Of a DNA stretch of 39,739 bases, positions 18,510-38,632 are shown in pieces (within the stretch, counting starts at the first letter, position 1; each line of letters opens with the position of its first letter). The DNA comes from a virus. Taxonomy: Duplodnaviria > Caudoviricetes. The notes below the pieces were generated by a model, which was given only the letters and a program-made list of their open reading frames with translations, was not told the DNA's origin and did no database searches. Location: IMG/VR virus record IMGVR_UViG_3300033481_000004, positions 1 to 39,739 of that record; one strand, written 5' to 3'. The position numbers and the translations under genes were made by a program.

Positions 18510-18788
18510 ATGTCAAAACCGACAATTTACATGGTATACGATAGCGAAAAAGGCGATGAAAGAATCGGCAGTTACAACTCGGAAGATGCGAGTAAGCTAC
18601 TGGGGATTAAACCGGATCACGTATCAACTTATGCAAGCTCTGGTAACAGATATAAAAGCAGATACTTATTTATCCCGGAACAGCATAAGCCAATGAGAAA
18701 CGGGATTGATGATGAAATGCTTCGTGACTGGGACTTTACCACAGAAGCTTTAAAGGCTATGGCAGGAGGTGGAAAGCGTGGTAGCTGA
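18510..18788 (+). CDS. Hypothetical small DNA-binding-like protein
   Basis: GAGGAGG RBS; EDASKLLGIKPDHVSTYA HTH-like segment. Confidence 0.6.
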   Translation: MSKPTIYMVYDSEKGDERIGSYNSEDASKLLGIKPDHVSTYASSGNRYKSRYLFIPEQHKPMRNGIDDEMLRDWDFTTEALKAMAGGGKRGS

Positions 18789-19236
18789 TAAAAACACATT
18801 CAGACAATTTGTATCTATCTGCAAAGAGATTGACGATGAAGAAACCAGAGTAAGAAAGTTACAGGATCAGATAGACACCATGCGCCCGCTGGAAAGAGAA
18901 GTAACTGACATTGTTACCAGAGGAAAGAGAGGGAAAAAGCCACTCGGTATCTGCAAGATACGGGGAAGTGAGGACCATCAGGAACTAAATAAGAAACGGG
19001 CTGAGTTAAGGGAAAGAAAGGCAAGGAAAGAACTTTCCATAGCACAGAGAGAAAAAGGCATCATAGAAGCCGAGGAATTCATTTATAGCCTTGAAGAGAG
19101 CGAAACTAGACGTATACTACTATTCTACTGCATAGACGGCATACGGACGTGGAAAGGGGTCGCAGAGGCTATGGGAGAGGGATACACGGCTGATATGTGC
19201 AAGCAGGCGTTTTCAAGGTTTATGCGTGCAAATTAA
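18778..19236 (+). CDS. Late transcriptional activator (RinA/ArpU-like)
   Basis: Coiled coil then RRILLFYCIDGIRTWKGVAEAMG...SRF HTH; sits at end of the early region. Confidence 0.75.
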   Translation: MVADKNTFRQFVSICKEIDDEETRVRKLQDQIDTMRPLEREVTDIVTRGKRGKKPLGICKIRGSEDHQELNKKRAELRERKARKELSIAQREKGIIEAEEFIYSLEESETRRILLFYCIDGIRTWKGVAEAMGEGYTADMCKQAFSRFMRAN

Positions 19237-19553: not shown

Positions 19554-19587
19554 TGTCACGTTTGTCACGCGGTCCCTATGCTATAAT
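19554..19587 (+). promoter_or_regulatory. Activator-dependent late promoter
   Basis: Direct repeat TGTCACG-TT-TGTCACG over a non-consensus -35; extended -10 TG-C-TATAAT (19582-19587). Confidence 0.7.
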
Positions 19588-19731
19588 TAAGATGGGAAAA
19601 GTGTAAAACCTCCCCGACACATATTTCCCCCATTTTCCTTCTCCCCGAGGAAACACATAAGCGGTCTAAAAGTTCCCCTTAATAGACCTTATCAAAATCA
19701 ATAAGGGCGTGCCGGTTCGAATCCGGCATAA

Positions 19732-19805
19732 CGGCGCATAGTTCAAATGGCAGAACAGCAGTATCGCCCCTGACTGTAATTCTGGTTCAAATCCAGATGT
19801 AGCCG
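19732..19805 (+). tRNA. tRNA-like element / pseudo-tRNA (no canonical anticodon loop)
   Basis: CGGCGCA acceptor strand, U8-A9, D stem GTTC/GAAC, stem GCAGT/ACTGT with 10-nt loop, T arm TCTGG-TTCAAAT-CCAGA. Confidence 0.55.
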
Positions 19806-19835
19806 CTCAGCCAGACTTCATATGACACCTCCTTA

Positions 19836-19876
19836 GAAAATGCCTGCCGTGGATACCATGGTGGGTGTTTTCTTTT
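19836..19876 (+). terminator. Intrinsic terminator
   Basis: 17-bp stem with five G-U pairs (folds fully only on + strand), U-rich 3' end. Confidence 0.7.
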
Positions 19877-19918: not shown

Positions 19919-20332
19919 GTGGAAGAAGCTAAGAGAAAGAAACCTTACGGGTTATGGGCGGGACTTATATTAGTCGGAGTAGTAATAGTTATCTGGATAA
20001 TATCAATGCTGTTGAAACCTAAAATAGACTATGATTCAATGGCAAAAGAGTTATTCAATTATGCTTATACGTTTGATAATGTAGACAAAATAGAAGCGGT
20101 TGATGATGATATATTTCACGTCACTGTAAAAAGTGATCCGTGGTATACCGCAAGCGAAAAAGATAAAATGATCTTTTGCAAGAAAATGAATGAAGGTATC
20201 ACATTGATCTGCCAGAAGTACAAAACAATCAGAGACATTGACCGGGCAGCTGTTTATTACTATGACGGTAAAGGGATAAAGGTGGCGGAACCCGGAAAAG
20301 GGGTAACGCTGGAAAGCAAAATATTGCATTAA
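19919..20332 (+). CDS. Moron: N-terminally anchored membrane protein
   Basis: AAGGAGG RBS before GTG 19919; one TM helix; terminators on both sides. Confidence 0.75.
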   Translation: MEEAKRKKPYGLWAGLILVGVVIVIWIISMLLKPKIDYDSMAKELFNYAYTFDNVDKIEAVDDDIFHVTVKSDPWYTASEKDKMIFCKKMNEGITLICQKYKTIRDIDRAAVYYYDGKGIKVAEPGKGVTLESKILH

Positions 20333-20336
20333 ACAC

Positions 20337-20367
20337 AAGCACTGAGGTGATTACCTTGGTGCTTTTT
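20337..20367 (+). terminator. Intrinsic terminator
   Basis: AAGCACTGAGG-TGATTA-CCTTGGTGCTT then T run. Confidence 0.75.
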
Positions 20368-21263: not shown

Positions 21264-21406
21264 TATGGAAGCTTATTAAACGATTATGGTGCAAGCATAG
21301 CAAGACAAAGTACATACGCACTTACCTTGATGCTGAGAGACCAGGAGTAATGCGTACACACCACATACATGAGTGTAAGGAGTGCGGCAAGCGTATCTAT
21401 AATTGA
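21260..21406 (+). CDS. Small Cys/His protein, 48 aa (absent from ORF track)
   Basis: GGAGG RBS; MIWKLIKRLWCKH...CKECGK. Confidence 0.7.
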   Translation: MIWKLIKRLWCKHSKTKYIRTYLDAERPGVMRTHHIHECKECGKRIYN

Positions 21407-21422
21407 TTGGGAGGGCAGGAGA

Positions 21423-21614
21423 ATGCTTATACATGAAGTAATAAAGAAAGCTATAGATACAACCTTAACAATAAGACGACAGTCGTGGAGAGGGAGCGGA
21501 GTTGAATTCATGCTTACTGAACCAATCGCTCTACTCAAAAAGCATAGCGAACCAAAGTTCTGGAACCCAACACCAGATGATCTGATGGCTGATGATTGGG
21601 AGGTAATAGAATGA
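21423..21614 (+). CDS. DUF2829 / Tad2-like small protein
   Basis: IRRQSW and WNPTPDDLMADDWEV motifs; GGAGG RBS before ATG 21423. Confidence 0.7.
   Translation: MLIHEVIKKAIDTTLTIRRQSWRGSGVEFMLTEPIALLKKHSEPKFWNPTPDDLMADDWEVIE

Positions 21615-38556: not shown

Positions 38557-38632
<76 letters not shown>

What the first reader, a model, noticed from the sequence alone, without database searches (positions are those of the whole stretch)
19592..19876. Late-leader ncRNA displaying four CCCC loops, two T-arms and an anti-Shine-Dalgarno tract
Seen: directly after the late -10 box, successive hairpins expose C-rich loops. These are GTGT-[AAAACCTCCCCG]-ACAC (19601-19620), TTTCCT-[TCTCCCCG]-AGGAAA (19634-19653), GGTCTA-[AAAGTTCCCCTTAA]-TAGACC (19663-19688) and GCAGT-[ATCGCCCCTG]-ACTGT (19758-19777). 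There is a free T arm TGCCGG-TTCGAAT-CCGGCA (19710-19728), a tRNA-like cloverleaf, ACACCTCCTT (19825-19834; CACCTCCTT matches the 16S rRNA 3' end), then a G-U-rich terminator. Known: Staphylococcus RNAIII/RsaE use UCCC loops to pair with SD sequences, CsrB-type RNAs sponge proteins with repeated loops, and HK022 put RNA antiterminates. Inference: an abundant late phage RNA that silences host mRNAs, sponges a C-rich-RNA-binding protein, or promotes read-through of the two terminators before the packaging genes.
Basis: partly seen in the sequence, partly recalled or inferred. Interest (0 to 1): 0.8.

Follow-up and report, generated by a model that had tools for sequence, protein, structure and literature searches.

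The report
Phage tRNA-shaped RNA matching host tmRNA
Behind its putative late promoter this temperate phage carries a conserved patchwork of folded non-coding RNA modules, and one tRNA-shaped module has a loop arm complementary to the start of the likely host's ribosome-rescue RNA (tmRNA), so it likely works as an antisense blocker, which has not been tested.

Summary
All the described hairpins are at the stated coordinates. The 285-nt unit is a real, uncatalogued promoter-to-terminator RNA cassette. It is shared and reshuffled among prophages of Lacrimispora and related Lachnospiraceae.

Homologs correct the anatomy:
- The third 'CCCC loop' is one stem of a likely H-type pseudoknot.
- The 'free T arm' loop is not conserved.
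- The cloverleaf keeps covarying stems but carries a 9-10-nt C-rich loop instead of an anticodon loop.
- The anti-SD tract comes with an anti-AUG (32 of 35 segments), as in csRNAs.

New here: the cloverleaf's loop arm is complementary to the host pre-tmRNA 5' junction. That junction is the best or tied-best genome-wide match in 5 of 5 Lacrimispora genomes. The match is genus-specific, and arm variants track tmRNA variants.

Best reading (0.4): an antisense cassette cut out by host tRNA-processing enzymes, aimed at pre-tmRNA and at translation starts. The match was found post hoc. Expression evidence is one low-depth contig. Read-through control is unlikely, because many relatives lack the cassette. 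No search here found the RNA described.

The parts
18769..19236 (+). Putative late-gene activator (Ltr/RinA/DUF1492-like); context
   Evidence: phrog_36 E=2.5e-6. Relatives hit RinA weakly (2 of 54) and DUF1492 below cut-off. The model resembles viral DUF1492/sigma-4 proteins.
19555..19569 (+). Direct repeat GTCACG-TTT-GTCACG, likely activator site
   Evidence: Sequence; conserved behind close activators; Ltr proteins bind such repeats (PMC3753634 passages).
19579..19587 (+). Extended -10 element (TGn TATAAT); start site predicted near 19594
   Evidence: Sequence; conserved in homologs; not mapped.
19594..19629 (+). 5' hairpin with C-rich loop (loop 1)
   Evidence: Fold; run of 4 or more C in 12 of 27 leaders, unpaired probability 0.95 in the window.
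19634..19653 (+). Hairpin with C-rich loop (loop 2), optional module
   Evidence: Fold; seen in L046, L047, L074, L144.
19663..19707 (+). Likely H-type pseudoknot: S1 19663-68/19683-88, S2 19676-81/19702-07
   Evidence: S1 100% paired with 3 double-sided changes in 30 rows; 36 distinct units; S2 partner present when only the 3' side was searched; 1-3 copies per leader.
19710..19728 (+).
   Evidence: Stem 100% paired in 20 rows, 1 double-sided change; loop varies.
19732..19805 (+). tRNA-shaped element with 10-nt C-rich loop in place of the anticodon loop
   Evidence: Rfam tRNA 31 bits; 16 variants, 91% of cells paired, 8 pairs with double-sided change; nearest host tRNAs are Gly and Trp.
19758..19777 (+). 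Loop arm complementary to the Lacrimispora pre-tmRNA 5' junction (6 leader plus 12 mature nt)
19819..19834 (+). Single-stranded anti-AUG (CAU 19819-21) plus anti-SD (CCUCCUU 19828-34)
   Evidence: Unpaired in the fold; CAU 4-10 nt before the anti-SD in 32 of 35 distinct segments.
19835..19876 (+). 18-bp G-U-rich hairpin and U tract, likely intrinsic terminator
   Evidence: -24.5 kcal/mol, 0 of 200 shuffles; an equivalent hairpin is present in homologs.

Best explanation
The region is a conserved, modular non-coding cassette between the putative late promoter and a likely terminator, and it likely works by base pairing: host tRNA-processing enzymes would cut the transcript at its tRNA-shaped element, whose C-rich loop arm is predicted to pair with the 5' end of the host's nascent pre-tmRNA, while the 3' piece would pair with ribosome-binding sites and start codons. 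Shown: the sequence, the covarying stems, the modular reshuffling, the complementarity and its host-genus specificity. Inferred: transcription; cutting by RNase P and RNase Z; loop-loop capture of the G-rich leader hairpin of pre-tmRNA before its acceptor stem can close, which would block maturation and lower trans-translation; repression of translation starts by the 3' piece; a stabilising or spacer role for the pseudoknot.
For: (1) The arm pairs with the junction at -32.4 kcal/mol. None of 4000 host background windows is as strong (minimum -23.8), and 6 of 12 distinct arm variants beat all 4000. (2) With the window's own complement and up to 3 mismatches, the junction is the sole best site in 3 of 5 genomes and tied best in 2 of 5 (four of the five sites confirmed as tmRNA coordinates, the fifth by identical sequence). 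(3) Genus-specific: -30 to -32 for 4 of 4 Lacrimispora junctions, -8 to -24 for 30 other family junctions, and at best -18.9 for 43 tRNAs. The prophages of this class found in held genomes lie in that genus. (4) Arm variants track tmRNA 5' types: L074 and L144 pair 18 of 18 with the genus type; L004 and L236 pair 12 bp plus one bulge with the commonest family type; the prophage in G002 pairs best with G002's own allele. (5) Four variants (L045, L083, L184, L231) carry a G that breaks the base of their own stem and extends pairing to the host leader. (6) The host junction folds as a hairpin with a G-rich loop; predicted net binding is -17 to -19.5 kcal/mol after unfolding. (7) The tRNA elbow bases are invariant while the loop is never a 7-nt anticodon loop; the acceptor-T domain is what RNase P reads (PMC11143913 passages). 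(8) Anti-SD plus anti-AUG before a terminator is the csRNA layout (PMC3091779 passages), and the leftward ORFs it would start run 2-81 codons with no shared peptide.
Against: The tmRNA match was noticed post hoc in a low-stringency BLAST (E 0.44). Both partners are hairpins, so one stem match counts twice. All variants descend from one ancestor, so they are not independent. Six of 12 variants do not beat the background (1 to 44 of 4000 windows as strong, which also took the best of four hosts). Six other arm classes (L047, L018, L022, L029, L082, L055) reach only -5 to -25 with any of 34 junctions, and L047 does not match its own host (-10). The commonest arm has a 3-nt mismatch to its own hosts. 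Mature tmRNA has its 5' end paired and is long-lived (general knowledge), so blocking new synthesis during one lytic cycle may achieve little. No conserved phage or host mRNA target was found for the 3' tract or the loop, and L020/L021 have lost the anti-SD. Transcription and processing are not shown.
Confidence: 0.4

Rival explanations
1. Generic anti-Shine-Dalgarno small RNA of the LhrC/csRNA kind: the C-rich loops and the 3' tract are redundant seeds for G-rich ribosome-binding sites, and the tmRNA match is a coincidence.
For: Anti-SD plus CAU in 32 of 35 segments. C-rich loop 1 in 12 of 27 leaders. The window's first loop and L073's tRNA-like loop share AACCUCCCCG. LhrC uses three redundant UCCC sites (PMC4132741 passages).
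Against: No recurring target among the top five translation starts of 8 (pro)phages, apart from two homologous pairs. No homologous loop targets in 7 (pro)phages. Host matches are sporadic; the best is one membrane-protein gene in 4 of 49 genomes. It does not explain the genus-specific 18-nt match.
Confidence: 0.2
2. A decaying phage tRNA slot (Gly/Trp-like ancestor) with hitch-hiking hairpins; the modules are passive, and the tmRNA-complementary arm is chance or a captured inverted piece of ssrA DNA.
For: The nearest host tRNAs are Gly(UCC/CCC) and Trp. An ARAGORN-called tRNA-Ile(UAU) sits in the same slot in L079. The acceptor stem is only 78% paired. Many relatives lack the cassette.
Against: None of 16 variants has a 7-nt anticodon loop. 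The same enlarged loop persists while the D, anticodon and T stems stay 94-100% paired with double-sided changes. Pseudoknot S1 covaries.
Confidence: 0.15
3. Decoy array against host anti-phage RNases: the pseudoknots mimic type III antitoxins, as pseudo-ToxI does, and the tRNA shell baits tRNA-cutting enzymes.
For: Up to three pseudoknot copies per leader. Type III toxins occur in the host group: ToxN 2 of 49, CptN 25 of 251, TenpN 9 of 251 over cut-off, with H-type repeats upstream. Pseudo-ToxI precedent (PMC5086642 passage). A Tad2-like gene lies 1.5 kb downstream.
Against: Model R1 finds nothing in 39 host toxin loci. Phage units abut with linkers as short as 2 nt, leaving no single-stranded tails. 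Loop lengths differ from CptI, whose L1 is 1 nt. No type III toxin gene in the phage for the two families searched.
Confidence: 0.12
4. Sponge for a C-rich-RNA-binding protein.
For: Several exposed C runs on one RNA.
Against: Only loops 1, 2 and 4 are exposed, their flanks differ, and their number varies between leaders. No GGA loops on the + strand. No candidate protein was identified.
Confidence: 0.08
5. put-like cis antiterminator that carries polymerase through the downstream terminators.
For: Position at the 5' end of the late transcript; a terminator follows in nearly all leaders parsed.
Against: Leaders of about 60 nt with no module precede the same kind of terminator (L005-L015, L023, L099). 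Pseudoknot absent from 31 of 54 near and 52 of 52 distant loci.
Confidence: 0.05

Closest known systems
StxS of Shiga-toxin lambdoid phages (PMC7547250; abstract and outline seen)
   Same: A short transcript between the late promoter and its first terminator is processed into a regulatory small RNA.
   Different: StxS comes from a constitutive, Q-antiterminated promoter and uses Hfq and RNase E. Here the regulator is Ltr-like, the RNA is a multi-module cassette with a tRNA shell and a pseudoknot, and nothing has been tested.
C4 antisense RNA of phages P1/P7 (named as an RNase P substrate in PMC11143913, passage seen; its cloverleaf fold and loop pairing are recalled)
   Same: A phage antisense RNA with a tRNA-like fold, cut out by RNase P and pairing through loops.
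   Different: No Rfam c4 match. C4 targets the phage's own immunity transcript (recalled); here the predicted target is a host stable-RNA precursor, and no own-genome target recurs.
Streptococcal csRNAs (PMC3091779 passages) and Listeria LhrC / staphylococcal RNAIII and RsaE (PMC4132741 passages)
   Same: Unpaired anti-SD plus anti-AUG before a terminator; repeated C-rich loops.
   Different: No Rfam match, no two-component promoter, phage-borne, no target found; the loops are mostly CCCC, not a fixed UCCC.
Type III antitoxins ToxI, CptI, TenpI and phage pseudo-ToxI (PMC4627078, PMC5086642 passages)
   Same: Small H-type pseudoknots with an A-rich last loop, sometimes in tandem, upstream of a terminator.
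   Different: No toxin gene downstream, no model match to host antitoxins, no free tails, non-identical copies.
Phage late-leader tRNA genes; allo-tRNAs and irregular tRNA polycistrons (PMC5389517 passages)
   Same: tRNA-derived genes in a mobile-element polycistron; an apparently normal tRNA-Ile(UAU) shares the slot in some relatives.
   Different: 7/5 acceptor-T layout and short variable loop (not 8/4 or 9/3); a 9-10-nt loop with no canonical anticodon.

Membership tests
Functional tRNA gene | Cloverleaf with D and T elbow bases | tested here: met
Functional tRNA gene | 7-nt anticodon loop with U33 | tested here: not met
   9-10-nt loops in 16 of 16 variants; ARAGORN makes no call in the window, though it does call some relatives
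Functional tRNA gene | Regular 7-bp acceptor stem | tested here: not met
   Bulged base in the window; 78% of cells paired
Functional tRNA gene | Aminoacylation | not testable with these tools
   Needs a charging assay
Type III antitoxin | H-type pseudoknot unit | tested here: inconclusive
   S1 covaries; S2 is conserved as complementarity without a trustworthy double-sided change
Type III antitoxin | Near-identical tandem repeats with single-stranded cleavage tails | tested here: not met
   One copy in the window; divergent, abutting copies in relatives
Type III antitoxin | Toxin gene after the terminator | tested here: not met
   The next ORF has no Pfam or PHROG hit; CptN and TenpN are absent from the phage; the ToxN model was not run on the phage by itself
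csRNA | Unpaired anti-SD plus anti-start codon before the terminator | tested here: met
csRNA | CiaR-box promoter and csRNA sequence | tested here: not met
   The promoter carries GTCACG repeats; no Rfam hit
LhrC/RNAIII/RsaE-type UCCC sRNA | Exposed C-rich seeds | tested here: met
   Loops 1, 2 and 4; loop 3 is likely paired
LhrC/RNAIII/RsaE-type UCCC sRNA | Pairing to specific mRNA SD regions | tested here: inconclusive
   No conserved target
CsrB/RsmZ sponge | Repeated GGA loops on the transcribed strand | tested here: not met
   The + strand loops are C-rich; no Rfam hit
HK022 put-like antiterminator | Required in cis for read-through | tested here: inconclusive
   Absent from many relatives that keep the terminator; no assay
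C4 antisense RNA | Match to Rfam c4 families and complementary sites in the phage's own genome | tested here: not met
allo-tRNA | 8/4 or 9/3 acceptor branch and long variable arm | tested here: not met
   7/5 layout and 3-4-nt variable loop
tmRNA fragment | Sense-strand similarity to host tmRNA pseudoknots | tested here: not met
   Only the antisense 5' match appeared (hits to L213 printed)

The most novel reading that the evidence does not exclude
Lacrimispora phages have turned a tRNA gene into a display scaffold whose anticodon arm is an antisense probe for the host's nascent pre-tmRNA, co-evolving with the host's tmRNA 5' end. This would be a phage-encoded RNA inhibitor of trans-translation, shipped in a mix-and-match cassette of pseudoknots and tRNA shells with interchangeable payloads.
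Probability: 0.33. Interest if true: 0.88.

Novelty: new variant of a known kind. Interest (0 to 1): 0.67.

Why it matters
If the pairing is real, it is a phage RNA that switches down ribosome rescue by intercepting a stable-RNA precursor. No title in the listing (15 of 41 papers shown) describes such a phage RNA. It would also be a natural case of a tRNA scaffold displaying an antisense loop. It names one partner, one 18-nt site and natural allele pairs, so it is directly testable. Even if the pairing is not real, the cassette adds an uncatalogued pseudoknot and a conserved non-decoding tRNA-like family to phage late leaders, and shows that such leaders exchange RNA modules independently of their activator.

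Tried and rejected
- Searches for close relatives found none by DNA in GenBank phages (only a 22-nt T-arm-like hit), by exact patterns or by the single activator protein. The 54-protein alignment worked.
- L090 is the window's own contig and L091 a near-identical fragment; both were left out of all counts.
- Dropped as chance hits from the pattern scans: 6 of 19 (L072, L076, L077, L080, L081, L085), 7 of 23 (L223, L226, L235, L237, L241-L243) and 4 of 31 distinct stretches.
- One search used an S2 register that I mis-set by one column; one search replaces it. In one search the S2 'double-sided' counts come from misaligned rows (long-loop and first-copy units) and are not used. The S2 tally is mis-registered for six-letter partners and is not used.
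- Loci were selected by patterns that enforce S1 pairing, so S1 statistics are partly by construction. One search's pattern was built from the host sequence, so it shows conservation (46 of 49 genomes; G005's hit is its own prophage), not specificity.
- Rejected: a leftward small gene from the apparent SD+ATG on the - strand; descent from tmRNA pseudoknots; chromosomal copies of the pseudoknot (R1 hit 6 of 49 genus genomes, every inspected hit in a phage leader; one weak hit inside a coding region in 151 family genomes).
- Expression: one soil metatranscriptome holds a single 174-nt contig at depth 2 over 19630-19774 and nothing else of the 2.3 kb laid. Contigs give no strand or ends and DNA carry-over is possible, so this is not counted as evidence.
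- The activator model has no significant PDB match, so Q-like versus Ltr-like action is unresolved.
- Literature: searches showed no description of this RNA. Twelve-letter motifs were absent from the searchable supplements of PMC10690425 (3 of 6 held files not searched, 3 more unreadable) and PMC8040213 (2 of 8 not searched). The large alignment files there could not be read, so a module may be listed in them as an unnamed candidate.
- Seen as search listing only: PMC3152322, PMC13682666, PMC12283969. PMC8012679 gave no relevant passage.

Full report
Setting. The window is a 39.7-kb temperate siphophage record: integrase at the left end, replication genes, then terminase, head, tail and lysis genes. 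The finding lies behind a small regulator (18769-19236; phrog_36, E 2.5e-6) and one 91-codon ORF. The regulator's named close relatives include proteins from Lacrimispora, Enterocloster and Roseburia. Its family touches RinA and DUF1492 weakly, which fits the Ltr activators that bind direct repeats at the late promoter (PMC3753634 passages). A GTCACG direct repeat (19555-69) and an extended -10 (19579-87) precede the region. The host is inferred from relatives, not known.

Observation. The + strand folds far better than shuffles (z -4.2) and better than the - strand does (z -2.0). Five C runs in 285 nt exceed all 1558 other window strands, though composition explains part of it (P 0.037). Rfam finds only a marginal tRNA; across 20 homologous loci it found five tRNA hits and one sub-threshold chance hit.

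Homologs. An alignment of 54 activator proteins fetched 42, 12 and 54 loci, and four productive pattern scans added more. Promoter-to-first-terminator units behind this activator family run from about 60 to over 400 nt, and cassette leaders reach about 550 nt. The pseudoknot module occurs in 23 of 54 loci with a close activator and 0 of 52 with a distant one. It also sits behind differently arranged promoters and other late regulators. The order is fixed: C-loop hairpin(s), one to three pseudoknot units, a GC hairpin, one or more tRNA-shaped elements, an anti-SD tract, a terminator. The content is mix-and-match. The cassette is therefore accessory and is exchanged between phages.

Pseudoknot. 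Loop 3 holds CCCTTA, complementary to TAAGGG 20 nt on. It is one of 6 such folds on the window's + strand by a permissive parser, and the only one there with six Watson-Crick pairs in both stems and a strong G-C content. In 30 aligned units S1 is fully paired with three double-sided changes; a fourth appears in L236 and L322. S2 is nearly invariant, so it has no reliable covariation. However, a scan anchored only on the 3' strand and the next hairpin returned 27 cassette leaders among 31 distinct stretches: 26 show the full partner upstream (a few with one mismatch) and one is cut by a contig end. Nineteen have a 5-7-bp S1 and 8 only a weak A-U one. The pseudoknot is likely, not proven. It resembles type III antitoxins in topology only: no model match in 39 host toxin loci, no free tails, no toxin gene.

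tRNA-shaped element. Sixteen variants keep the D, anticodon and T stems at 94-100% pairing; the whole cloverleaf has eight double-sided changes (0 of 500 shuffles for cells paired and covariation score, 5 of 500 for the number of such pairs; related sequences inflate such controls). The elbow bases are invariant, the acceptor stem is loose (78%), and the loop is always 9-10 nt and C-rich. The nearest host tRNAs are Gly and Trp, so it probably descends from a tRNA gene. The same non-decoding loop kept across covarying stems argues for selection on a new role. The same slot in relatives holds a normal-looking tRNA-Ile and tRNA shells with other inserts.

The tmRNA match. While testing whether the pseudoknots came from tmRNA (they did not), the only window hit was the loop arm, antisense to the host pre-tmRNA across its 5' processing site (E 0.44). 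I first took it for chance, then tested it. It pairs at -32.4 kcal/mol against a background minimum of -23.8 in 4000 host windows. Genome-wide it is the sole best site in three genomes and tied best in two. The site is present in 46 of 49 genus genomes. It is genus-specific: -30 to -32 in four Lacrimispora junctions, -8 to -24 in 30 others (34 of 35 loci parsed). Variants follow host types: L074 and L144 are fully complementary to the genus type, L004 and L236 fit the commonest family type, and the prophage of G002 prefers its own host's allele. Four variants sacrifice their own terminal stem pair for a base that extends host pairing. The host leader and 5' end are predicted to fold into a hairpin with a G-rich loop, the mirror of the phage arm. 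By inference it would last until the 3' end of tmRNA is made, which gives a window for loop-loop capture.

Against the match: it is post hoc, inflated by hairpin symmetry and shared ancestry, weak in half of the variants, and absent from six other arm classes. It is also hard to square with the stability of mature tmRNA unless the RNA is made in lysogens. That tmRNA affects the growth of some phages is recalled, not checked here.

3' tract. In 32 of 35 distinct segments a CAU lies 4-10 nt before the anti-SD; the search required the anti-SD but not the CAU. The leftward ORFs it would start share no peptide. This is the csRNA layout. No conserved target emerged in 8 (pro)phages or 49 hosts, so it is either a broad seed or a relic of a gene start.

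Mechanism. Most likely the promoter fires under the activator, and possibly at a low level in lysogens (inferred). The transcript would stop at 19876 and be cut at the tRNA shell by RNase P and RNase Z (inferred from anatomy; for substrate rules). The pieces would act by base pairing: the shell on pre-tmRNA, the 3' piece on translation starts, with the pseudoknot protecting or spacing the 5' piece. Confidence 0.4. Rivals: generic anti-SD RNA 0.2, decayed tRNA slot 0.15, nuclease decoy 0.12, sponge 0.08, antiterminator 0.05.

Comparison and verdict. It works like StxS in position, like C4 RNA in using a tRNA-like fold for antisense (recalled), and like csRNA/LhrC in its seeds, but it fails the membership tests that could be run for C4 RNA and csRNA; for LhrC-type RNAs the target test was inconclusive. 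Earlier notes of this scan describe other patchwork late leaders with pseudoknots, with no sequence look-alike to this one, so the layout is a recurring kind. The modules and the predicted target are new as far as the searches reach. Interest 0.67.

Noticed in passing
L073 about 1605-1690; L088, L089, L182, L222, L228, L231 (behind or before the C-loop element): A second tRNA shell (acceptor stem, T arm, in most copies ending in CCA) whose D and anticodon arms are replaced by a small pseudoknot or switch plus an A-rich linker. In L073 the linker ends like the host tmRNA resume context. It lacks the G3-U pair and gave no Rfam tmRNA hit. It may be a mini-tmRNA-like decoy.
   Followed up: partly
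L003, L004, L073, L079, L083, L088, L089, L231, between the first and second pseudoknot copies: A further small hairpin whose loop is complementary to the sequence just downstream, i.e. a fourth pseudoknot with a 1-nt first loop as in CptI; four knots in a row. Seen by eye.
   Followed up: no
L005-L016, L023, L024, L099, L100, L103: The late promoter is followed within about 60 nt by a terminator with no module in between. This implies that the Ltr-like regulator or leakiness allows read-through, as Q does in lambda.
   Followed up: partly
L005-L016, L032, L100, just after the first terminator: A different conserved hairpin with a GAAA-containing loop, followed by an anti-SD tract.
   Followed up: no
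L025, L060, L064, L066, L105-L107, upstream of the pseudoknot: Further structured modules of 60-200 nt inserted in the same leader; no Rfam hit in those searched.
   Followed up: no
window 21369-21614 (+): Tad2-like (Thoeris anti-defence) gene, Pfam E 9e-8, between the leader and the terminase genes.
   Followed up: no
window 19919-20364 (+): Membrane-anchored accessory ORF with its own likely promoter and terminator; similar-looking genes follow the leader in several relatives.
   Followed up: no
L079, L222, L232, L236, L329, L339: tRNA-Ile(UAU) in the same slot (ARAGORN call for L079; the others by near identity).
   Followed up: no
L150, L166, L170, L195, L196, L200, L201 (host chromosomes): Type III toxin-antitoxin loci whose antitoxin repeats are strongly diverged from each other yet keep the pseudoknot pairing.
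   Followed up: no
window 38557-38630 (+): tRNA-Ala(GGC) near the right end, possibly the attachment region or host flank.
   Followed up: no
Host tmRNA genes, L211-L214 and L340-L370: In Lacrimispora and several other family members the pre-tmRNA leader is predicted to pair with the first mature bases as a hairpin; the six leader bases are conserved across the genus.
   Followed up: partly
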